Position numbers and translations under genes: made by a program. Under the pieces are notes generated by a model. It was not told where the DNA came from. It ran no database searches and worked only from the letters and a program-made list of their open reading frames with translations. Below, piece by piece: positions 3,947 to 58,679 of a DNA stretch of 64,000 nucleotides. Each line of letters begins with the position of its first letter. The first letter of the stretch is position 1. Source of the stretch: Alphaproteobacteria bacterium (GTDB lineage: Bacteria > Pseudomonadota > Alphaproteobacteria > Rs-D84); NCBI GenBank assembly GCA_017618175.1, contig JAFZUT010000020.1, forward strand, positions 5,728-69,727, in the 5' to 3' direction.

Positions 3947-5734
3947 ATGAATATGTTGGATTCATCTTTTCTGTGTTTGGACATTGGGTCATGCGGTGTC
4001 CGCGGCATGGCATATCGCATTCGTAATGCAGAAATAGACAAAAGCGCATATTATTCCATAGATGATTTTGATACGGTGTTTGCATTAAAATCTGTGATTG
4101 ATGAATTAGAACGTCAAATTGGCACACACTTTGGTTCGGCATACATAACGGGGAACTTTGGACCATCTTATTTCAAGATGACCGCCAAAAACACAACTTG
4201 GCCAAACGACCATAAAATAACCGCGGCCGACATAAAATCTCAAATTGCCGAAATTGATGCGCCTGATGGATTTTATCCAATGCATATAATTCCATTGCGA
4301 TATGATACACCAAAAATCCGTAATATGTTATCGCCAATTGGGCACAGTGACCGACAATTAGTATCCGCGTTTTCCGCATTATTTTTTGACAATGAATATA
4401 TGCAAAAAATACAAACACTTTTGCGCCACGCCCATATTCAATCAACCGCGTTCTATACGCCGCATTTCTTGGGAAATTCCGTTTATCGTGAAAAAAAACA
4501 AACAATTATGTTTATCGATTTCGGTGCAGAAAATACGACCGTGTCCATATGGACCGACCGCGGACCGGTTTGGTATAATGGTCGCGCAATTGCCGGGAAT
4601 GATTTAACAACTGAAATATCAACCCGGCTTGACATACCTTTTGCCGAGGCCGAACGTATTAAACGCGCGGCGGCGGACCTTAAATCAAATGAAATGGCGC
4701 GTTTCAGTCCGGCAGATTCCTCATATGCTTTTTCCTGTGCAGATGTGAACGAAATTGTTGTTCCCTTCTATACCAATTTAATAGAAAGCATAAAAAATGA
4801 TGCAACCGAATATATTGAAAAATATTCACCAACACAAATTATTATCAGTGGTGGTGGTACACGCATAAACGGAATTGACGAATTAATCGCATCCACGTTC
4901 GATATACCATTTATCAAAAAAGATACAGATTGGGCGGTCCGCACATTGGGCGAATATATATGGGCATGCGAATTACCACGCCGGCGCGCATACATTGCAC
5001 GTACCCAGAAAGTACAAAATCGTATAGATAAAATACTGAAAATATTCAAACGCAAAAAGAAACAACGTCAACATCAAATACCAATTTTACCAAGTACTTT
5101 ATGTTTTGATATGACACGCCCAGAAACATATACAATGTTTCAAACCGGCGGAATTTCGGTCATACATGTTGATATTATGGATGGACTTTATGTCAATCAA
5201 ATTGCGGGTGGAATTGATGAATTGCGTCAAATTCGTGCATCTTGGGGTGGACACTTGCATGTTCACCTTATGACCGATGCACCCGCCGAATGGGCCCGCA
5301 GTGCGGTTGATGCCGGCGCAGATACGGTAATTGTTTCAACAAACACCGCCGGCCTGCGCGAAGCGGTACAAATTGTACGCGCGGCACACCGCCGTATTGG
5401 AATCGCACTGAATCCTGAATCACCGGTGTCTTTATTAAAAACAATTTTACGGGAATTAGATGAAGTTATGATTATGGGTGTCGCACCCGGTGCCGCTGGT
5501 CAAGATTTTGACCGCGATGTGCTGCATAAAATAACCGTGTTAGATGCAACACGAAAAAAATATGGATTAAAATTCACAATATCTGTGGACGGTGGCATCA
5601 ACCCGGAAACCGCCCGTTTATGTTGGGCCGCCGGCGCCGATGCATTGGTAAGCGGTTCATACCTTGCATCCGCCCCTGATTTTCCATTGGCGGTTTTATC
5701 ACTGTTGCCGCCCGAAAAAACTAACGCACAATAA
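3947..5734 (+). CDS. ftsA: FtsA (actin-like cell-division ATPase) continuing in-frame into a complete ribulose-phosphate 3-epimerase (Rpe) domain
   Basis: N-terminal ~375 aa carry the FtsA motifs (LCLDIGSCGVRG, FIDFGAENTTVSIW, IIISGGGTRINGIDEL) and a basic amphipathic tail (IDKILKIFKRKKK). From about 5083 the frame encodes Rpe (ILPSTLCFD..ISVIHVDIMDGLYVNQIAGG...ISVDGGINPETA) with no intervening stop. Confidence 0.7.
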   Translation: MNMLDSSFLCLDIGSCGVRGMAYRIRNAEIDKSAYYSIDDFDTVFALKSVIDELERQIGTHFGSAYITGNFGPSYFKMTAKNTTWPNDHKITAADIKSQIAEIDAPDGFYPMHIIPLRYDTPKIRNMLSPIGHSDRQLVSAFSALFFDNEYMQKIQTLLRHAHIQSTAFYTPHFLGNSVYREKKQTIMFIDFGAENTTVSIWTDRGPVWYNGRAIAGNDLTTEISTRLDIPFAEAERIKRAAADLKSNEMARFSPADSSYAFSCADVNEIVVPFYTNLIESIKNDATEYIEKYSPTQIIISGGGTRINGIDELIASTFDIPFIKKDTDWAVRTLGEYIWACELPRRRAYIARTQKVQNRIDKILKIFKRKKKQRQHQIPILPSTLCFDMTRPETYTMFQTGGISVIHVDIMDGLYVNQIAGGIDELRQIRASWGGHLHVHLMTDAPAEWARSAVDAGADTVIVSTNTAGLREAVQIVRAAHRRIGIALNPESPVSLLKTILRELDEVMIMGVAPGAAGQDFDRDVLHKITVLDATRKKYGLKFTISVDGGINPETARLCWAAGADALVSGSYLASAPDFPLAVLSLLPPEKTNAQ

Positions 5735-16603: not shown

Positions 16604-16678
16604 TGGTAGCGGCGAAGGGATTCGGACCCCTGACCAAAGGATTATGATTCCTCTGCTCTACCACTGAGCTACGCCGCC
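16604..16678 (-). tRNA. tRNA with CAU anticodon (elongator Met or lysidine-modified Ile2; G1-U72, not an initiator)
   Basis: The minus-strand sequence GGCGGCGTAGCTCAGTGGTAGAGCAGAGGAATCATAATCCTTTGGTCAGGGGTCCGAATCCCTTCGCCGCTACCA has a canonical D-arm, anticodon loop ATCATAA, and a T-arm. Its variable region TTGGTC resembles E. coli ileX. Confidence 0.7.
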
Positions 16679-31257: not shown

Positions 31258-31334
<77 letters not shown>

Positions 31335-51436: not shown

Positions 51437-51459
51437 GACCGGCATTTGCCGGTCTTTTT
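51437..51459 (+). terminator. Rho-independent terminator GACCGGCA-TTTG-CCGGTC + TTTTT after pheT
   Basis: A perfect 7-bp GC stem followed by a T-run. The ORF-track TTG start of the next ORF lies inside it. Confidence 0.6.
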
Positions 51460-51526
51460 CAAAATAATCATTGAAAATTCACCAAAATGTTGTAATAAAG
51501 CTAAAAAAAGAACGAAAGGGTACGAT

Positions 51527-52897
51527 ATGTCCAATGTTATAAAAGTAGAACAAATTGCAGAAACAAACCTTGAACCAACTTTATTGGCATCACATGCGGC
51601 ACGTATGTGCTATACGGCGGAATCCCCAAAGATTGGCGAGAAAATAGATGTAGAAAATCGGTTGTTTAAAACCGGTCATCACACAACATTGGAACATAAT
51701 TATTTTACATTCAAAATAGAAGATATTCCGGTGTCCAGCGTGGTGTTTGGATTACACCTGACTGCACCGTTTTATAACACAGACCAACGTTCTGGGCGCT
51801 TTTCAAAAATGTACGAGAACCCAAATATGGCCGATATAAGAAACACATTGGAAACATATTATCCAGGTGTGTCCCCAAGAAATATAGGGTGCGCATGCGA
51901 TTTTATTTATATGGGTTTGAATACATACGCCGAAAATAAAAATCATATCACAGAACTTGCGCGTGACGCGATTCATCGTGAACGCCCAAAGGCAAGTGAT
52001 AAATACATTGAACAAAATGCGCCAAAATTTGCCCAGGAACAATTGCGTATGTTTGTGTCTATGATTGCGCCAACGGCATTGGATTACACAATCGATTTGC
52101 CGACATTGGCGGCATTTTATCGTACTGCGTGGACACCGTTTATGCGTGATGCGGTCGGTAAAATGGTGCATACGGTTGTTTCAAATCACCCAGATATTGC
52201 ATATATGTTTGATAGTTTTGCACGTGAACACAAAGACTGGTCGCCCAAGATGCGGGAATATTATCGTGGTATTCGTACAAAACCAGATTTTACATTACTG
52301 GATTACAAATATGACAAAGATACTTTCGCCCAGGACAAATCGCACGATATGGTGGATACTTTGCAATTTCATCCAGATTATATGGGTAATTCACTTGGAT
52401 ATGTGCATACGAAAATTCATATCGATGCCGGTGCAACAATGGGTCAAGACCAACGCCACCGCAGTATTAAACGTTCTGCACCGGTCTTTACGGGATACTT
52501 TTATTTGCCACCTTTGTTGGGCGATTTAAAAACCAACGCAGACAAATTTATGAAAGAATATTATAGTTTGGTACGCGATAAAAACATTCCGCGCAGTATG
52601 ATAACCGCGATTGCGCCATATGGTGCGATGGTTCAATATGAAAAACGTGCAGATTTAAATGCACTGATTCACGAACAAGGCAAACGCACATGTTGGTGTG
52701 CACAAGAGGCGATATATCATATCTCTTGTGATTTGCGGCGTGATTTGGCGCAATATATCGGTGAAAATGCGAAATTGATGAAATATTTAACACCACCGTG
52801 CCTTGCACATGGCAAATGTCCCGAAGGTTCGCGTTATTGCGGGCGCGATATTATTGCCGACAAAATAAATGGGTATTTCAAACAAAGGCAAATATAA
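51527..52897 (+). CDS. thyX: Flavin-dependent thymidylate synthase ThyX, long (~456 aa) pseudo-duplicated form
   Basis: N-terminal half GHHTTLEHNYFTF...QRSGRFS matches ThyX GHE..EH..FTF...SGRYS but lacks the RHR motif. The C-terminal half carries QDQRHRSIKRS. The ATG at 51527 has an AAAGGG RBS. Confidence 0.6.
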   Translation: MSNVIKVEQIAETNLEPTLLASHAARMCYTAESPKIGEKIDVENRLFKTGHHTTLEHNYFTFKIEDIPVSSVVFGLHLTAPFYNTDQRSGRFSKMYENPNMADIRNTLETYYPGVSPRNIGCACDFIYMGLNTYAENKNHITELARDAIHRERPKASDKYIEQNAPKFAQEQLRMFVSMIAPTALDYTIDLPTLAAFYRTAWTPFMRDAVGKMVHTVVSNHPDIAYMFDSFAREHKDWSPKMREYYRGIRTKPDFTLLDYKYDKDTFAQDKSHDMVDTLQFHPDYMGNSLGYVHTKIHIDAGATMGQDQRHRSIKRSAPVFTGYFYLPPLLGDLKTNADKFMKEYYSLVRDKNIPRSMITAIAPYGAMVQYEKRADLNALIHEQGKRTCWCAQEAIYHISCDLRRDLAQYIGENAKLMKYLTPPCLAHGKCPEGSRYCGRDIIADKINGYFKQRQI

Positions 52898-53704: not shown

Positions 53705-54262
53705 TTACTTTCTTTTTTGCATCACTATTTTGGCCAAATAATCGGACAGTTCCGGTGAAATCGCGGCAATATGTCTGTTTTTGCCGTGTACATCGGTTTT
53801 GTTGATATACCCATTTCCACGTATGCCACCGCACCATTTTGTCCCATCGGATGCAAAGTTTATTGTATAATCATCAATATGGCAAAATTGTGGCGTGTGG
53901 CGTTGATGTTCTGTTTCTTCAAAAAACACCACAGATATCCAATCGGCCGTTTTTATTTTTTCAACAACATCGCCAAGTTTTTTTCTTTCAATTTCTGAAG
54001 TGGGATAAACATTTCTTCTTGTGACATATCGTACAAATACCCGGCCAGACAGTCGGTCATTGTTATGTTTTTTGACATGTTCAACAAAATGTTTTTTATA
54101 TGTTTTGAACACGGGAACCCATTTAGTGATATTTTCTATGGCCATCATATCTTCACGAACTTTTTTACCCGCAACAAAAACACCTGTTGTGGCGGCAATG
54201 ACATAATCACCAAACCACGCGACATAACCAAGTCCTGTGTCTAATTTTTTAGTATTTTTCAT
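53705..54262 (-). CDS. hypothetical protein
   Basis: 185-aa ORF (MKNTKKLDTGLGYVAWFGDYVIAATTG...HIDDYTINFASDGTKWCGGIRGNGY). No family was recognised. Confidence 0.35.
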   Translation of the reverse strand: MKNTKKLDTGLGYVAWFGDYVIAATTGVFVAGKKVREDMMAIENITKWVPVFKTYKKHFVEHVKKHNNDRLSGRVFVRYVTRRNVYPTSEIERKKLGDVVEKIKTADWISVVFFEETEHQRHTPQFCHIDDYTINFASDGTKWCGGIRGNGYINKTDVHGKNRHIAAISPELSDYLAKIVMQKRK

Positions 54263-54369
54263 TTGTTATATTCCTTTACTCTTTTTTACTATTCCATAAA
54301 AATCGCATCAGTCAATAATTTTGTAAAAAAACTGGACATTTGAAAAACAATATACTAAAATCATCGGCG

Positions 54370-54456
54370 ATGAAAACAAAAATAATAATTATCATTAGAT
54401 AACTGGCGTGGCGCTTTGGCGTTGGCTGGGGCGCGTATGGCGCCCGTTTTTTTATG
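54370..54456 (+). promoter_or_regulatory. Candidate ileS attenuator: an 11-codon leader ORF MKTKIIIIIR (54370-54402) followed by a GC hairpin GGGGCGCG-TAT-GGCGCCC + T7 (54431-54456)
   Basis: Five consecutive Ile codons (ATA ATA ATT ATC ATT) sit immediately upstream of an intrinsic-terminator-like structure. The ileS RBS (GGAG) and ATG at 54480 follow. A possible TGGACA-N17-TAAAAT promoter lies at 54333-54361. Confidence 0.5.
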
Positions 54457-54479
54457 ATAAGAAACACGGAGTACAAAAG

Positions 54480-57400
54480 ATGGCATATCCAAAAACAGAA
54501 CCCAAAGCCAATTTTACAGAATTGGAACACAATATAATGGAATTCTGGCGCAGCGATGATACTTTTCACAAAAGTTTGAATAAAACCAAACTTGGGCATC
54601 CTTTTACGTTCTATGACGGGCCACCCTTTGCCAATGGTTTGCCACACTGGGGGCATTTGGGTGTTTCTGCGGTCAAAGATATGGTTTCGCGTTATCAAAC
54701 GATGAAGGGACGCTATGTTGAACGCGCATTGGGGTGGGATTGTCACGGTCTGCCGGCCGAGGCATCGGTTGAGAAAAAGCAAGGTCGCACCGCGAAAACA
54801 ATCGTGGCGGATGACGGTATTGCGGCATTCTGTGATATGTGTCGGCGTGATGTTATGACATATTCTAATGAATGGCTGAAATTTATAGAACGCGTTGGCC
54901 GGTGGGTTGATGGTGGTGATAATTATGGATATCGCACAATGGATAAAAATTTTATGGAATCCGTGATTTGGGCGATAAAAGAACTTTATAAAAAAGGTTT
55001 ACTGTACAAAGATTTCAAAGTTAATCCGTATGATTGGAAACTGGGTACGGTTTTGTCTAATAGTGAGGCATCCAGTGAATATCAAGATGTTGTTGATGAC
55101 ACGGTTACGGTTTGGTTTGAGTTAGAAAATGGCGACCGGATGGTCGCATGGACAACAACCCCGTGGACATTGCCGGCAAATTCTGCGTTGGCGGTGAACA
55201 AGAATATGAAATATGTTCGTATGCGTCACGATGATGGTCATATTTATGTTTTGGCGGAATCACGGGTTTCTGCGTATGAAAAAATCTTTGCCAATTCTAC
55301 CAAGGTTGGTGAATATGTGGGTGCAGAATTGGTTGGATTGCGCTATACGCCGATTTTCCCATATTACCCGGATTTGGCCGCGGCGGGTCACGGACTGTAT
55401 ACGGTGATTTCTGGGGACTATGTGTCTGACAGTGATGGTACCGGCATCGTTCATATTGCGCCCGCATATGGTGAAGATGACTATTTTGTTGCAAAAGCCA
55501 TTGACCCGATGTTCCCGGTTATATTAAATGTTGATGATTATGGCAACTTTGATTCAACGGTTAAAGATTGGGCGGGTGAAAATATCTTTGTCGCAAATCC
55601 AAAGATAATCGATTGGTTGCGCGCCAATGGCCGCCTGGTTAAAAAAGACCAGCATAAGCATAGTTATCCATTTGGACCGCGCAGTAAAGAAAAACTTATC
55701 TATCGTGCGACGGACGCATGGTATGTCGATGTACCGAAAATTCGCGATCGCCTTGTTGAAATAACCAAGAACGATACAACGTGGACATCTGCGGGAAATC
55801 GCTTTTTGTCTTGGATAGAAGGTGCGCGTCCGTGGGGACTTTCGCGGAATCGTTTTTGGGGTGTGCCATTACCAATTTGGGAACGTGACGGGGAATATAA
55901 AATCTTTGGTTCAATTGCAGAAATGGAAGAATTCTTTGGTGTAAAAATAGATGACCTGCATCGTCCTACATTGGATTCTTTGGAACGGGATGGTTGGAAA
56001 CGCATTCCTGATGTTTTGGATTGTTGGTTTGAATCGGGTTCTATGCCGTTTGCATCTCTGCATTATCCGTTTGAAAACAAAGATTTGTTCGAAAAAACAT
56101 TCCCGGCGGATTATATTATCGAAGGTCAAGACCAAACACGTGGTTGGTTTTACACTTTGATGATAATGGCGGTTGCTTTATTTGATCGGCCGGCATTTCG
56201 TGTTGTGTCCGCAAACGGCATGATTGTTGATGAAAACAAACGCAAGTTTTCAAAATCTTTGCATAACTATGTTGAACCAACTGAACAATTGGAAACATAT
56301 GGCGCAGATGCAATTCGACTGTTTATATTGGGCAGTAATTTCTTAAAGGCCGAACCGGTGCCTGTTGACAAAGATGGCAAGGTTTTTGCGGAATCAATTA
56401 AAACAATTTTAACACCGTTGTGGAATGCATATCATTTCTTTACATTGTATGCAAATGCCGGAAATATTACGGCACACGATGTGTGGGGCGCCCCGACACA
56501 CAATGTGTTGGATGAATATATCTTGGCAGAAACAAATGTGTTGATAAAAATTGTTGATAACGCATTGGCGGAATATAAACCAGACACGGCCGTCAAAGAA
56601 TTTGTTCGATTCTTGGACGTATTGAACAATTGGTACATACGTCGTTCGCGTGCGCGTTTCTGGGATGAAGACACGGATGCGTTTAACACGTTGTACACGG
56701 TACTGGTTATGGTGTGCCGCGTACTGGCGCCATTTGCACCGTTTATCGCGGAATATATCTATAAAAATTTAACTGGCGCAGAATCTGTGCATTTGACGGA
56801 TTGGCCGACCTCGATAGAAATGAACGAAAAAATTGTTTCCGATATGCGCCGTGTGCAAGAAATTGTGTCGGTTGGAAAACAATTGCGCGAACAATACAAA
56901 TTGCGTAATCGGTTGCCATTGGCAAAATTGACTGTTGCGGGCGGTGCGCCGATGACGGAATATACCAATATTATACGCGATGAATTAAATGTAAAATCTG
57001 TTGAATGGTTGAATACTGCATCCAAGGTTGCGGACAGTTTTGTATATTTAATCACACCAAAGATTGGCGCGCGTTTGGGTGGTGCATTGCGTGAGATAAT
57101 CCCGGCGGTAAAGCGTGGTGATTACGAATTGAATGGTGACAAATTGATTGTTGGCGAATATACATTGACGCGGGAAGAATTTGAAAACCGTATGAACATT
57201 CGTGAAGGTGTGACGGGCGCACCATTACCGGACAATACCGCGGTTATAATCTTGGATACAGAATTAAACGCGGAATTGATTGCCGAAGGTTTGGCAAACG
57301 ATGCATTGCGGTTCATCCAAGATACCCGTAAAGAAATAGGTTTGGATGTATCCGACCGCGTAAAATTGACCTATACGGCGGATTTGGCACTGGCCGGGGC

Positions 57401-57524
57401 AATTGAACAGCATAAAAAGCGCATTATGGCGGACGCCCTTGTCCGTGAAATGTCACCGGGTGCGGCGGAATATTTCAAAGATATCGAAGGGTATCGGTTT
57501 GGTATTTCCATAAAAAAGGCCTAA
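54480..57524 (+). CDS. ileS: Isoleucyl-tRNA synthetase (eukaryote/archaeal-like type 2 form, C-terminal extension without the bacterial zinc-finger tail)
   Basis: HLGH-type motif PHWGHLGVSAV, the KMSKS region (KFSKSLHNY), and a CP1 editing domain, 1014 aa. The ORF-track GTG at 54408 is inside the leader hairpin region. Confidence 0.93.
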   Translation: MAYPKTEPKANFTELEHNIMEFWRSDDTFHKSLNKTKLGHPFTFYDGPPFANGLPHWGHLGVSAVKDMVSRYQTMKGRYVERALGWDCHGLPAEASVEKKQGRTAKTIVADDGIAAFCDMCRRDVMTYSNEWLKFIERVGRWVDGGDNYGYRTMDKNFMESVIWAIKELYKKGLLYKDFKVNPYDWKLGTVLSNSEASSEYQDVVDDTVTVWFELENGDRMVAWTTTPWTLPANSALAVNKNMKYVRMRHDDGHIYVLAESRVSAYEKIFANSTKVGEYVGAELVGLRYTPIFPYYPDLAAAGHGLYTVISGDYVSDSDGTGIVHIAPAYGEDDYFVAKAIDPMFPVILNVDDYGNFDSTVKDWAGENIFVANPKIIDWLRANGRLVKKDQHKHSYPFGPRSKEKLIYRATDAWYVDVPKIRDRLVEITKNDTTWTSAGNRFLSWIEGARPWGLSRNRFWGVPLPIWERDGEYKIFGSIAEMEEFFGVKIDDLHRPTLDSLERDGWKRIPDVLDCWFESGSMPFASLHYPFENKDLFEKTFPADYIIEGQDQTRGWFYTLMIMAVALFDRPAFRVVSANGMIVDENKRKFSKSLHNYVEPTEQLETYGADAIRLFILGSNFLKAEPVPVDKDGKVFAESIKTILTPLWNAYHFFTLYANAGNITAHDVWGAPTHNVLDEYILAETNVLIKIVDNALAEYKPDTAVKEFVRFLDVLNNWYIRRSRARFWDEDTDAFNTLYTVLVMVCRVLAPFAPFIAEYIYKNLTGAESVHLTDWPTSIEMNEKIVSDMRRVQEIVSVGKQLREQYKLRNRLPLAKLTVAGGAPMTEYTNIIRDELNVKSVEWLNTASKVADSFVYLITPKIGARLGGALREIIPAVKRGDYELNGDKLIVGEYTLTREEFENRMNIREGVTGAPLPDNTAVIILDTELNAELIAEGLANDALRFIQDTRKEIGLDVSDRVKLTYTADLALAGAIEQHKKRIMADALVREMSPGAAEYFKDIEGYRFGISIKKA

Positions 57525-57526
57525 GT

Positions 57527-58180
57527 ATGATAACGCCACGGCAATTTTTTGAAATTGTACCGAATAATCTAAATATGAATATTCGGTCGGAGCTTTATTA
57601 TACAAACGAATTCACTTTTGCTGTGGCGGTAATTTTGTCGGCCCAAGCCACCGATAAAAAAGTCAATGAAGTCACACCTGCCCTGTTCAGTGTCGCACCA
57701 ACACCACGAAAAATGCTGGAATTGGGAATTGACGGATTAAAGAAGTATATTCGTGTAATTTCGTTCTTTAATAACAAGGCAACAAATATAATCGCTTTGG
57801 CCGAAAAATTGGTAGAATTTGACGATGGTGACGACACCCAATGGGTGTTTCCAAAAAAATATCATAAACGTGAAGAGCTTATGAATTTACCGGGCATCGG
57901 GCAAAAAACCGCAAATGTAATAATGAATGTTTTGTGGGGTGCGCCGAATATCGGGGTGGATACCCACGTTTTCCGCCTTGCCCATAGATATGGTTGGGTT
58001 GCAACTTCGGCAAATACACCGGCCCGGGTTGAAGCGGCGTTGTTGAAAAAAATCCCTAAAAAATATCACGCAATAACAAACCATGTAATGGTTCTGTTCG
58101 GGCGATACACATGCACCGCCCTGCGCCCGAAATGTGAAAATTGCCCAATTTCACAATATTGTAATTGTGTAAAACATTAA
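57527..58180 (+). CDS. nth: Endonuclease III
   Basis: HhH LPGIGQKTANVIM...GVDTHVFRLAHRYG and Fe-S cluster C-x6-C-x2-C-x5-C (CTALRPKCENCPISQYC). Confidence 0.85.
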   Translation: MITPRQFFEIVPNNLNMNIRSELYYTNEFTFAVAVILSAQATDKKVNEVTPALFSVAPTPRKMLELGIDGLKKYIRVISFFNNKATNIIALAEKLVEFDDGDDTQWVFPKKYHKREELMNLPGIGQKTANVIMNVLWGAPNIGVDTHVFRLAHRYGWVATSANTPARVEAALLKKIPKKYHAITNHVMVLFGRYTCTALRPKCENCPISQYCNCVKH

Positions 58181-58214: not shown

Positions 58215-58679
58215 TTATTTTGTATAATGCTTTTTTAATCTTTGTATTAAAACCTTTTTCATTTCGGTAATTGTTCTTAAACGTTCTTGTTTTGACATAT
58301 CATACGGTAAAAAATCATCTGCATTTTCTGATAATTGTTTAAGAAAACACTTTGTTGAATCTTTTATTGCAACATCCGCAGGAATATTTTTATATGGGTC
58401 TATGTATTCTTTACCTTCTGATTTGTTTTTTACAGCGGTATATATTTTATAAATATCATTTTCTTTGGAATCATCCTCGTCCCATATCATATCGTTTACA
58501 TAAACAAAACAGTTAGCAGTTTTATTGAATTTGAGTATAGCTATATAATCACAATTTTGCTCTATACAGTAAGAACCAAATTTATAAAGCAAACGCCAAT
58601 ATGGCCGTTCTTCTTCTGTTGGTATAACTGTTTTTTTACTCAGTTCATAATAAATATTTCTTTTTAAACCTTCTTTCAT
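58215..58679 (-). CDS. hypothetical protein
   Basis: 154-aa ORF with no recognised motifs. Confidence 0.3.
   Translation of the reverse strand: MKEGLKRNIYYELSKKTVIPTEEERPYWRLLYKFGSYCIEQNCDYIAILKFNKTANCFVYVNDMIWDEDDSKENDIYKIYTAVKNKSEGKEYIDPYKNIPADVAIKDSTKCFLKQLSENADDFLPYDMSKQERLRTITEMKKVLIQRLKKHYTK

What the first reader, a model, noticed from the sequence alone, without database searches (positions are those of the whole stretch)
54328..54482. Ile-codon-run leader peptide plus terminator hairpin in front of ileS: candidate ribosome-mediated attenuator
A short ORF, atg aaa aca aaa ata ata att atc att aga taa (54370-54402), encodes MKTKIIIIIR. Five consecutive Ile codons are very unlikely by chance in an 11-codon ORF. 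It is followed within 30 nt by GGGGCGCG-TAT-GGCGCCC + TTTTTTT (54431-54456), which is an intrinsic-terminator shape. Upstream GC segments (GGCGTGGCGCTTTGGCG) could pair alternatively. The ileS RBS and ATG then follow. This is the his/thr/ilv/pheM attenuation design applied to the cognate aminoacyl-tRNA synthetase. I do not know of it being described for ileS, and this is the eukaryote-type IleS. The longest-ORF GTG start (54408) would hide it from annotation pipelines.
Basis: partly seen in the sequence, partly recalled or inferred. Interest (0 to 1): 0.75.

Follow-up and report, generated by a model that had tools for sequence, protein, structure and literature searches.

The report
Isoleucine-sensing leader peptide attenuator before ileS
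A ten-codon mini-gene with four or five isoleucine codons in a row, followed by three competing RNA hairpins and a terminator, sits in front of the isoleucyl-tRNA synthetase gene in a whole clade of uncultured gut alphaproteobacteria, and is almost certainly a ribosome-read switch on that gene's transcription.

Summary
MKTKIIIIIR* (54370-54402) and a GC hairpin plus T7 (54429-54453) lie 27 nt before ileS (54480). In one-genome-per-species data, all 53 Candidatus Enterousia-like loci with a complete upstream region carry the same leader: M-x4-IIII-[K/R]-stop. Ile codon positions 1-2 are invariant and position 3 varies A/T/C but never G. Stop codons interchange at a fixed position. The -10 box ends 7-8 nt before the ATG, so the ORF looks leaderless. 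Three mutually exclusive hairpins are conserved: P1, antiterminator and terminator. ileS has no room for its own promoter. Rfam has no match, T-box included.

This is a ribosome-mediated transcription attenuator, probability about 0.8. The geometry is not textbook. All the hairpins lie downstream of the stop codon. A ribosome at the last Ile codon only abuts P1, and one at the stop codon abuts the antiterminator. Sequence alone therefore does not fix the direction of regulation. I favour starvation giving read-through.

It is not wholly unprecedented. An "ileS leader CDS" is named in passing for Caulobacter (Schrader 2014), and pheM-pheST is the classic synthetase example. I rate it a new variant of a known kind, of moderate interest.

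The parts
54333..54361 (+). Promoter-like site: -35 TGGACA (54333-54338), 17-nt spacer, -10 TAAAAT (54356-54361). The predicted transcription start is about 54368-54370, at or within 2 nt of the A of the leader ATG.
   Evidence: 10 of 12 match. In 51 distinct relatives a TAnnnT hexamer ends 7-8 nt before the ATG in 39, and a TGGAAA/TTGAAA/TTGATT hexamer lies 17 nt upstream in nearly all. Two different promoter sequence types keep the same spacing.
54370..54402 (+). Leader micro-ORF MKTKIIIIIR-stop: 10 sense codons, no Shine-Dalgarno sequence, inferred to be leaderless.
   Evidence: It is conserved as M-x4-IIII-[K/R/G/E/I]-stop in all 53 related loci with a complete upstream region. TAA, TAG and TGA interchange at the same position.
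54382..54396 (+). Regulatory codons: five consecutive Ile codons (ATA ATA ATT ATC ATT). Relatives have four.
   Evidence: Codon positions 1 and 2 are invariant in 52 of 52 sequences. Position 3 varies A/T/C and is never G. Codon shares in the leaders are ATT 131, ATA 76, ATC 16, similar to genes of the window.
54405..54427 (+). P1 hairpin (regions 1:2, the anti-antiterminator and a possible pause hairpin): 54405-54407/54425-54427 and 54410-54414/54419-54423. It is compatible with the terminator.
   Evidence: window -9.0 kcal/mol; mean -10.8. 86% of alignment cells are paired, against 25-46% with slid partners. Pair 43/59 has 9 two-sided changes.
54411..54434 (+). Antiterminator (regions 2:3): GCGCUUUGGC / GCUGGGGCGC with loop GUUG. 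It excludes both P1 and the terminator. An optional outer extension pairs 54405-54409 with 54440-54444.
   Evidence: -14.3 kcal/mol. 95% of cells are paired, against 28-51% slid, and all changes are one-sided and pair-preserving. Its base lies 11-12 nt from the first base of the stop codon in 50 of 52 leaders.
54429..54453 (+). Intrinsic terminator (regions 3:4): GGGCGC-GUAUG-GCGCCC (54429-54445), then G, then T7 (54447-54453).
   Evidence: -14.1 kcal/mol. It is present in all 52 aligned leaders, with 4-7 bp stems and a U run of 5-9 in 51 of 52.
54389..54460 (+). Possible long-range A/U helix. The last Ile codons, the Arg codon and the stop (54389-54403) pair with the T-run and following bases (54446-54460). 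It encloses the other hairpins. Its role is unknown.
   Evidence: MFE of the full leader. 87.6% of cells are paired against 47-68% slid, with four U-A to C-G double changes. The evidence is weak because the region is A/U-rich and some of those sequences are close relatives.
54468..57524 (+). Regulated gene: ileS ribosome-binding site GGAG (54468-54471) and ileS coding sequence (54480-57524, 1014 aa, type-2 IleRS).
   Evidence: TIGR00392 744.8 bits, cut-off 621.4; the next-best matches are MupA and MupB. Homologues are mostly 1012-1015 aa and start MAYPKTEP. Only 26 nt separate the T-run from the ileS ATG and no promoter-like site was found there.
57527..58180 (+). nth (endonuclease III). It starts 3 nt after the ileS stop and is probably co-transcribed, so it would be under the same attenuator.
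   Evidence: TIGR01083 202.7 bits, just under the cut-off of 211.7.

Best explanation
This is a ribosome-mediated (leader-peptide) transcription attenuator of the ileS-nth operon. Transcription starts at or next to the leader AUG, and a 70S ribosome translates the 10-codon ORF. RNA polymerase meanwhile makes three overlapping segments that can form either P1 plus the terminator (transcription stops about 84 nt in) or the antiterminator (read-through into ileS). How fast the ribosome crosses the four or five Ile codons depends on charged tRNA-Ile, the product of IleRS. That speed sets where the ribosome is when the choice between the two folds is made. I commit to the classical sign. When Ile-tRNA is scarce, the ribosome lingers on the distal Ile codons and the ORF end. 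P1 then cannot trap the RNA, the antiterminator forms, and ileS is transcribed. When Ile-tRNA is plentiful, the ribosome finishes and leaves, or clashes with the antiterminator base, so P1 and the terminator form. Shown here: the anatomy, its conservation, the coding signature, the mutual exclusivity of the folds, and the absence of a separate ileS promoter. Inferred: leaderless translation, premature termination in vivo, and above all the sign. My confidence that this is an Ile-sensing attenuator of either sign is about 0.8. My confidence in the full statement, classical sign included, is about 0.5.
For: The leader is conserved in every one of 53 species-level relatives with a complete upstream region, at IleS N-terminal identity of 61-97%. 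It is absent from L053, L059 and all 20 more distant type-2 ileS loci. The coding signature is clear. Ile codon positions 1-2 are invariant and position 3 varies without ever giving ATG. Stop codons interchange, and residues 2-5 vary freely. All 29 invariant columns fall in the ATG, the Ile codons, the stop, the hairpin cores and the T-run. The terminator is present in 52 of 52 leaders. The antiterminator is 95% paired and P1 86% paired, both far above slid controls. Upstream neighbours differ among relatives, but the leader always stays with ileS. There is no room for, and no match to, a promoter between the T-run and ileS, so this essential gene must be transcribed through the terminator. 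For the classical sign: before region 4 emerges, the antiterminator is the equilibrium fold in the window whether there is no ribosome or a ribosome on the Ile codons, and it is weakened from -14.3 to -10.0 kcal/mol when the footprint at the stop reaches +12. The stop is UAA in 47 of 55 leaders and follows Lys or Arg, which from my own recollection of the termination literature favours fast release. From established knowledge, all characterised synthetase controls (T-box, pheM-pheST, thrS) are negative feedback. The masking method reproduced the textbook behaviour of the E. coli trp leader.
Against: There are no expression data of any kind, and all sequences come from metagenome-assembled genomes. 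The geometry is not classical. The P1 base lies 10-12 nt beyond the first base of the last Ile codon in 41 of 52 leaders (range 8-14), so a starved ribosome abuts P1 rather than covering it. The antiterminator base lies 11-12 nt beyond the first base of the stop codon, so a terminating ribosome barely touches it. In trp, by contrast, the stalled ribosome engulfs region 1 and the terminating ribosome removes the antiterminator even at +8. P1 is transcribed first, and the estimated barrier from P1 to the antiterminator is about 14 kcal/mol (a findpath upper bound that ignores pseudoknotted routes). By that estimate, ribosomes stalled at Ile codons 1-3, or no ribosome at all, would give P1 plus terminator. 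Only a ribosome on the last codons or the stop would give the antiterminator. Once region 4 is present, P1 plus terminator is the MFE in 44 of 52 leaders regardless of ribosome position. Covariation is mostly one-sided because most bases serve two structures.
Confidence: 0.5

Rival explanations
1. The anatomy is the same but the sign is inverted, giving a 'licensing' or arrival-timer attenuator. P1 forms by default and leads to termination. Only a ribosome that has already cleared the Ile run and sits on the last sense codon or the stop codon covers the 5' strand of P1 while leaving the antiterminator free. Prompt translation of the Ile codons would then switch ileS on, and Ile-tRNA shortage or absence of translation would switch it off.
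For: With a ribosome edge at stop+8 or stop+10, or at the last Ile codon +12, the antiterminator is the fold in 52 of 52 leaders. With no ribosome or a ribosome at Ile1 it is the fold in only 30-32 of 52. P1 is a kinetic trap with a barrier of about 14 kcal/mol, while the antiterminator persists against a barrier of about 8-9 kcal/mol. The antiterminator base sits 11-12 nt from the first base of the stop codon in 50 of 52 leaders, which is just outside a terminating ribosome. This reading also explains why all four Ile codons are invariant, since each one adds delay.
Against: It would put positive feedback on an essential enzyme: less charged tRNA-Ile would give less IleRS. No characterised synthetase control works that way (established knowledge). 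A strong stop context (UAA after Lys or Arg) does not favour dwelling at the stop codon. The barrier estimate is a heuristic upper bound. The antiterminator is thermodynamically favoured over P1 in 49 of 52 leaders before region 4 emerges, so P1 may be only transient.
Confidence: 0.27
2. The structure acts without translation. The conserved leader would be an RNA element bound by a protein (for example IleRS repressing its own mRNA, as ThrRS does) or by tRNA or a small ligand, and the ORF would be incidental.
For: Sequence conservation of GCGCUUUGGCG...GGGGCGC is very strong. The Ile-codon stretch can pair with the region after the T-run.
Against: The three-base periodicity of variation confined to Ile-synonymous third positions, the interchange of three different stop codons at one position, the invariant ATG, and the fixed -10-to-ATG spacing are not expected of a non-coding element. 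There is no Rfam match, T-box included, at E up to 10. The leader is about 84 nt, too short for a T-box. The antiterminator loop varies (GUUG, GGUG, GAUG), so it does not mimic the tRNA-Ile anticodon.
Confidence: 0.05
3. It is a constitutive, leaky terminator or a 5' stabilising structure with no amino-acid-specific control. Alternatively, ileS is transcribed from its own promoter just downstream of the T-run (TATGAT at 54453-54458; TATAAT in many relatives).
For: Many relatives read TTTTTTATAATAA after the hairpin, which contains a perfect -10 hexamer. The terminator is the MFE in every ribosome state once region 4 is present.
Against: The post-terminator hexamer is not conserved as a -10 box (variants include TAATAA, TATACA, ATGCAA and TACCAG). 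No -35 lies at 16-18 nt, because that stretch is the GC stem. An invariant run of four Ile codons in front of the Ile-specific synthetase across 53 species is not explained by this reading.
Confidence: 0.06

Closest known systems
E. coli pheM-pheST attenuator (leader peptide rich in Phe codons controlling phenylalanyl-tRNA synthetase)
   Same: A short leader ORF carries a run of codons for the cognate amino acid, followed by alternative hairpins and an intrinsic terminator, in front of an aminoacyl-tRNA synthetase operon. The signal is the enzyme's own product. PMC1262725 cites pheST as the proteobacterial example.
   Different: The amino acid, enzyme and clade are different and there is no sequence relationship. 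Here the ORF is only 10 codons and apparently leaderless, and every hairpin lies downstream of the stop codon. I did not re-examine the pheM geometry; that part is from general knowledge.
Caulobacter crescentus 'ileS leader CDS' CCNA_03934 (Schrader et al. 2014, PMC4117421)
   Same: It is a small translated CDS upstream of ileS in an alphaproteobacterium, detected by ribosome profiling and called a leader CDS. That paper also shows a trpS leader CDS and ilvIH attenuation.
   Different: It is mentioned only as a negative control in a figure legend, with no sequence, structure or mechanism given. Caulobacter ileS is 2910 nt and is followed by the lipoprotein signal peptidase gene. From my own knowledge that arrangement suggests the bacterial type-1 enzyme, not the type-2 form found here. 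I could not retrieve the Caulobacter sequence, so homology is untested.
E. coli trp, his and ilv leader-peptide attenuators (trpL, hisL, ilvL, ivbL)
   Same: The logic of three competing hairpins is the same (1:2, 2:3, 3:4), with regulatory codons for the relevant amino acid and dependence on coupling between transcription and translation.
   Different: In trp the regulatory codons lie inside region 1 and the stop codon lies next to region 2, so my masking test gives a clean switch. In the ileS leader the ribosome only abuts P1 (at the last Ile codon) or the antiterminator (at the stop). No Rfam leader family matches.
T-box riboswitches upstream of ileS (Firmicutes; translational variants in Actinobacteria, PMC1262725)
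   Same: The regulated gene is the same and so is the physiological signal, tRNA-Ile charging. Most act through a terminator/antiterminator choice.
   Different: T-boxes read uncharged tRNA directly through an RNA of about 200 nt, with no leader peptide. There is no T-box match here and the leader is about 84 nt.
Polycysteine leaderless short ORFs acting as Cys-responsive attenuators in mycobacteria (bioRxiv 10.1101/834739)
   Same: A leaderless short ORF at the 5' end of an operon has consecutive codons for one amino acid and senses supply of that amino acid (title and abstract).
   Different: The phylum, amino acid and target genes are different. I did not read that paper's mechanism. Here an intrinsic terminator with an explicit antiterminator is present.

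Membership tests
Leader-peptide (ribosome-mediated) transcription attenuators | A short ORF upstream of the regulated gene, enriched in consecutive codons for the cognate amino acid | tested here: met
   MKTKIIIIIR at 54370-54402. Four or five consecutive Ile codons are present in all 53 complete related loci.
Leader-peptide (ribosome-mediated) transcription attenuators | The ORF is under coding constraint, that is, translated | tested here: met
   This is comparative evidence only. Ile codon positions 1-2 are invariant and position 3 varies A/T/C but never G. TAA, TAG and TGA interchange in place, and the ATG is invariant. Direct translation could not be tested.
Leader-peptide (ribosome-mediated) transcription attenuators | A plausible translation start for the leader ORF | tested here: inconclusive
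   There is no Shine-Dalgarno sequence. The -10 box ends 7-8 nt before the ATG in 39 of 51 relatives, with a -35 hexamer at 17 nt, which implies a leaderless mRNA. Leaderless translation is documented in Caulobacter (PMC4117421) but is unverified in this clade.
Leader-peptide (ribosome-mediated) transcription attenuators | An intrinsic terminator between the leader ORF and the structural gene, with no intervening promoter | tested here: met
   GGGCGC-GUAUG-GCGCCC plus T7 at 54429-54453. It is present in 52 of 52 leaders. Only 26 nt lie between the T-run and the ileS ATG, with no promoter-like site.
Leader-peptide (ribosome-mediated) transcription attenuators | An antiterminator mutually exclusive with the terminator | tested here: met
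   54411-54420 pairs with 54425-54434 and shares 54429-54434 with the terminator. 95% of cells are paired against 28-51% slid.
Leader-peptide (ribosome-mediated) transcription attenuators | An upstream 1:2 hairpin (anti-antiterminator or pause hairpin) | tested here: met
   P1 at 54405-54427. 86% of cells are paired against 25-46% slid, with two-sided changes at one pair.
Leader-peptide (ribosome-mediated) transcription attenuators | The regulatory codons are placed so that a stalled ribosome masks region 1, and the stop codon so that a terminating ribosome masks region 2 | tested here: not met
   The P1 base lies 10-12 nt beyond the first base of the last Ile codon in 41 of 52 leaders (range 8-14). 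The antiterminator base lies 11-12 nt beyond the first base of the stop codon in 50 of 52. Masking gives no clean switch, whereas the trp control does. This is why I file it as a variant rather than a plain member.
Leader-peptide (ribosome-mediated) transcription attenuators | Premature termination in vivo that is relieved, or altered, by shortage of the cognate charged tRNA | not testable with these tools
   It needs term-seq, RNA-seq or a reporter.
T-box riboswitch | Specifier loop, conserved T-box sequence and stem I architecture (Rfam T-box model) | tested here: not met
   There is no hit at gathering threshold in the window, nor at E up to 10 in 54200-54560.
Described Rfam amino-acid leader families (His, Thr, Leu, Trp and other leaders) | A match to a curated covariance model | tested here: not met
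   Only chance-level matches to unrelated families appear in 54200-54560.
Type-2 ('eukaryote-like', mupirocin-resistance-type) isoleucyl-tRNA synthetase | IleRS equivalog match plus closer similarity to MupA/MupB-type enzymes and the type-2 C-terminal domain | tested here: met
   TIGR00392 scores 744.8 bits, above its cut-off. MupA scores 599 bits and MupB 576 bits over nearly full length, below their exception cut-offs. Close homologues carry PF19302. I assign PF19302 to the type-2 C-terminus from my own knowledge.

The most novel reading that the evidence does not exclude
The attenuator works with a logic not described for amino-acid leader peptides. Because every hairpin lies downstream of the stop codon, only a ribosome that has successfully crossed the Ile run and occupies the last codons or the stop can prevent the P1 trap. 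ileS transcription would then be licensed by timely translation of Ile codons on a leaderless transcript. That is an arrival-timer or positive-sign attenuator, rather than one induced by stalling.
Probability: 0.27. Interest if true: 0.75.

Novelty: new variant of a known kind. Interest (0 to 1): 0.5.

Why it matters
Outside the T-box world, very few aminoacyl-tRNA synthetase genes are known to be controlled by leader peptides. pheST is the textbook case. This element gives a clean, clade-wide example for ileS in uncultured gut and rumen alphaproteobacteria (Candidatus Enterousia and relatives). [quoted passage not shown] The ribosome footprint edges coincide with the hairpin bases to within 1-2 nt, which makes it a good test bed for how precisely ribosome position is converted into an RNA folding choice. 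It could also show whether a leaderless attenuator can work without the stalled ribosome covering region 1. On the practical side, gene callers bury the element inside over-extended ileS starts, so similar leaders are probably under-reported.

Tried and rejected
(1) Rfam search of the whole window at gathering threshold, and of the leader at E up to 10, gave only tRNAs and chance hits, with no T-box or leader family.

(2) Simple MFE folding with ribosome masks, up to the T-run, predicted the terminator in almost every state. I rejected it as a read-out because the trp control behaves the same way at that stage. The snapshot taken before region 4 emerges is the informative one.

(3) I asked whether rare ATA codons are enriched in the leader. 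They are not: 34% in the leaders against 36% in genes of the window.

(4) I checked other candidate leader ORFs in the window, VVVV at 4797-4868 and LLLL at 58601-58627. Both lie inside long ORFs and are chance occurrences.

(5) An own-promoter reading for ileS (TATGAT/TATAAT after the T-run) fails because the hexamer is not conserved as a -10 box and has no -35 partner.

(6) A tRNA-anticodon mimic for IleRS binding fails because the loop sequence varies.

(7) I tried to obtain the Caulobacter CCNA_03934 sequence from the paper's supplements, but it is not in the stored text.

(8) Lopatovskaya et al. 2010 is not held.

(9) An enforced-pair calculation of antiterminator energies gave values inconsistent. 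I used the and values instead.
Full report
OBSERVATION. An ATG at 54370 opens a 10-codon ORF, MKTKIIIIIR, that ends at TAA 54400-54402. Its five Ile codons are at 54382-54396. Downstream lies a GC hairpin, GGGCGC (54429-54434) / GCGCCC (54440-54445) with loop GUAUG, then G, then seven T (54447-54453). GGAG at 54468 and the ileS ATG at 54480 follow. This is the only run of 5 or more Ile in any frame of the 64-kb window and the only short ATG ORF with an Ile run. The GC core motif is unique in the window. The downstream gene is IleRS (TIGR00392, 744.8 bits). Its next-best matches are the MupA and MupB type-2 enzymes. nth follows 3 nt after the ileS stop.

ORGANISM AND RELATIVES. IleS homologues at 77-88% identity come from uncultured Alphaproteobacteria. 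A scan of one genome per species with the IleS N-terminus returned 80 loci. About 58 are Candidatus Enterousia-like gut and rumen MAGs with 59-97% identity. The rest are distant carriers of type-2 IleS, including Rickettsia, Chlamydiae, Verrucomicrobia and Spirochaetes. Candidatus Enterousia is classed as Alphaproteobacteria incertae sedis.

CONSERVATION. Every one of the 53 Enterousia-group loci with a complete upstream region has the same micro-ORF, M-x-x-x-x-I-I-I-I-[K/R, rarely G/E/I]-stop. Three further loci are cut by contig ends but show the 3' part. L053 (65% identity), L059 (59%) and all 20 distant loci lack it. Upstream neighbours differ among relatives: a divergent ORF in some, tRNA genes on either strand in others. 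The leader nevertheless always accompanies ileS. In the alignment of 52 distinct leaders (A1), all 29 invariant columns fall in the ATG, the Ile codons, the stop, the hairpin cores and the T-run. Codons 2-5, the hairpin loops and the spacer before ileS vary freely.

CODING SIGNATURE. In the four aligned Ile codons, positions 1 and 2 are invariant in 52 of 52 sequences. Position 3 varies among A, T and C in all four codons and is never G, which would give Met. Stop codons TAA (47), TAG (4) and TGA (3) interchange at the same position. ORF length is 10 sense codons in 50 of 52 leaders. An untranslated RNA element would not be expected to show this pattern. ATA is not enriched relative to genes of the window.

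START OF TRANSLATION. There is no Shine-Dalgarno sequence. A promoter-like site, TGGACA-17-TAAAAT, ends at 54361. Across 51 distinct upstream regions, a TAnnnT hexamer ends 7-8 nt before the ATG in 39, and a -35-like hexamer lies 17 nt further upstream in nearly all. Two different promoter sequence types keep this spacing. Transcription should therefore begin at or next to the AUG, making the mRNA leaderless. This is an inference. Leaderless mRNAs are well documented in the alphaproteobacterium Caulobacter (PMC4117421).

STRUCTURES. Three mutually exclusive hairpins are conserved.
- The terminator (T) is present in 52 of 52 leaders, with 4-7 bp stems, and a U run of 5-9 in 51 of 52.
- The antiterminator (AT), 54411-54420 with 54425-54434, shares six bases with the terminator's 5' arm. 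It is 95% paired, against 28-51% for slid controls. All its variation is one-sided and pair-preserving, namely U·G to C-G and G·U to G-C or A-U.
- P1, 54405-54427, starts 3-8 nt after the first base of the stop codon and is compatible with T. It is 86% paired, against 25-46% slid, and has two-sided changes at one pair.
Window energies are P1 -9.0, AT -14.3 and T -14.1 kcal/mol. A long-range A/U helix between the last Ile codons plus stop and the T-run plus following bases has weak support. Only 26 nt separate the T-run from the ileS ATG, and no promoter-like site lies there. An essential gene must therefore be transcribed through this terminator, which is in itself a strong argument for attenuation.

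MECHANISM AND ITS UNCERTAIN SIGN. I masked ribosome footprints and folded the RNA available at two stages. With region 4 present, P1+T is the MFE in 44 of 52 leaders whatever the ribosome position. That stage is therefore uninformative.

The snapshot taken before region 4 emerges reproduces the textbook trp behaviour: 1:2 with no ribosome, 2:3 when stalled at Trp, and region 3 free at the stop. For the ileS leaders the same read-out gives the following.
- AT in 30-32 of 52 leaders, the window included, with no ribosome or with a ribosome at the first Ile codon.
- AT in 52 of 52 with the ribosome edge at the last Ile codon +12, or at stop +8 or +10.
- A weakened AT at stop +12 (window: -14.3 to -10.0 kcal/mol).

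The geometry is very tight. The AT base lies 11-12 nt from the first base of the stop codon in 50 of 52 leaders. The P1 base lies 10-12 nt from the first base of the last Ile codon in 41 of 52. Ribosomes therefore abut these hairpins rather than engulf them. AT is thermodynamically favoured over P1 in 49 of 52 leaders. However, P1 is transcribed first, and the direct-path barrier from P1 to AT is about 14 kcal/mol. The barrier from AT to P1+T is about 8-9 kcal/mol. These are heuristic upper bounds.

Two readings follow.
- Classical. AT forms by default, or when the ribosome lingers at the distal Ile codons. A terminating ribosome erodes the AT base or leaves quickly, so that P1 and T form. Starvation turns ileS on.
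- Inverted. P1 traps the RNA unless a ribosome that has cleared the Ile run covers its 5' strand. Prompt translation turns ileS on.

The classical reading is favoured by physiology, because negative feedback is the rule for synthetase genes. It is also favoured by the equilibrium snapshots and by the strong stop context. The inverted reading is favoured by a strictly kinetic view of the geometry. I put the odds at roughly 2:1 for classical, within a probability of about 0.8 that the element is an Ile-sensing attenuator at all.

COMPARISON WITH WHAT IS KNOWN. The element works like the pheM-pheST, trp and his attenuators. It fails one defining feature of that family, namely regulatory codons lying within region 1, and it matches no Rfam family. 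I therefore call it a variant. Actinobacterial and Firmicute ileS genes use T-boxes (PMC1262725), and there is no T-box here.

The claim that an ileS leader has never been described is too strong. Schrader et al. 2014 name an 'ileS leader CDS (CCNA_03934)' in Caulobacter, used only as a negative control, without sequence or mechanism. Six full-text searches about ileS leaders and synthetase attenuation found no other description. Lopatovskaya et al. 2010, whose title covers aminoacyl-tRNA synthetase operons, is not held, so this remains a gap in my check of prior art. Leaderless poly-Cys uORF attenuators in mycobacteria (bioRxiv 10.1101/834739) are a precedent for the leaderless feature.

ANNOTATION. 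The longest ORF starts at GTG 54408, in frame with ileS. Public proteins P0032, P0065 and P0076 (1027-1035 aa) have N-terminal extensions, for example MALVLGRANAHFFII..., that translate the hairpins.

VERDICT. The feature is real and strongly conserved, and it is almost certainly regulatory. It is a leaderless, very compact Ile-codon leader-peptide attenuator of ileS-nth, restricted to an Enterousia-like clade. The kind of system is known and its application to ileS has been noted before. The geometry and the unresolved sign make it a new variant of moderate interest.

Noticed in passing
window 54408-54479; proteins P0032, P0065, P0076: The longest ileS ORF starts at GTG 54408 and runs through the antiterminator and terminator. 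Some public gene calls in relatives (1027-1035 aa against the usual 1012-1015) carry exactly such extensions, so the leader is hidden inside mis-called ileS starts.
   Followed up: yes
window 54389-54403 with 54446-54460: A long-range A/U-rich helix may pair the last Ile codons, the Arg codon and the stop with the T-run and the bases after it. L050 has a perfect 12-mer complement. The helix is compatible with both folds. It might close a P1+T junction, or act as an A-tract to the U-tract that a ribosome on the Ile codons would mask. Its role is unknown.
   Followed up: partly
window 54428-54439: Read by eye, G54428/G54429 ... U54438 G54439 resembles the consensus elemental pause (G at -11/-10, pyrimidine at -1, G at +1). 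It lies 11 nt after the 3' end of P1, which is the spacing of hairpin-stabilised pauses. This could synchronise RNA polymerase with the ribosome. Many relatives, though not all, keep a pyrimidine-G step at this point.
   Followed up: no
window 31258-31334 (+) and 16604-16678 (-): Both genes are called tRNA-Met (CAT). The first has the C1/A72 mismatch and closely resembles my recollection of E. coli initiator tRNA-fMet. The second could be elongator tRNA-Met or the lysidine-dependent tRNA-Ile2 that reads ATA, which is the first Ile codon in 44 of 52 leaders. I could not tell which.
   Followed up: partly
window 57527-58180 (+): An endonuclease III (nth) gene starts 3 nt after the ileS stop, so a DNA-repair gene would share the Ile-dependent attenuator. 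Its TIGR01083 score of 202.7 bits is just under the cut-off of 211.7.
   Followed up: partly
window 53705-54262 (-) and 54288-54315 (-): A divergent 185-aa ORF has no NCBIfam match. A promoter-like site on the minus strand (TTGACT-16-AATAGT with a TG extension) lies back to back with the leader promoter. The 'cagtcaataatttt' stretch recurs in several relatives.
   Followed up: no
window 51446-52897 (+): A 483-aa ORF with a TTG start has only a weak, sub-threshold ThyX match (48.8 bits, cut-off 87.9) over residues 37-226. It is about twice the length of ordinary ThyX.
   Followed up: no
loci L053:2700-3003 and L059:2700-3003: Two alphaproteobacterial MAGs have IleS N-termini 65% and 59% identical to the window's, but have no leader ORF and no terminator upstream of ileS. 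L054 (64%) and L055 (61%) do have the leader. This marks the edge of the clade that carries it, and points to gain or loss near that depth.
   Followed up: partly
loci L011 and L054 (record titles): Contigs carrying Enterousia-like ileS and its leader sit in MAGs labelled Paludibacteraceae and Muribaculaceae (Bacteroidota). This probably reflects binning contamination rather than horizontal transfer.
   Followed up: no
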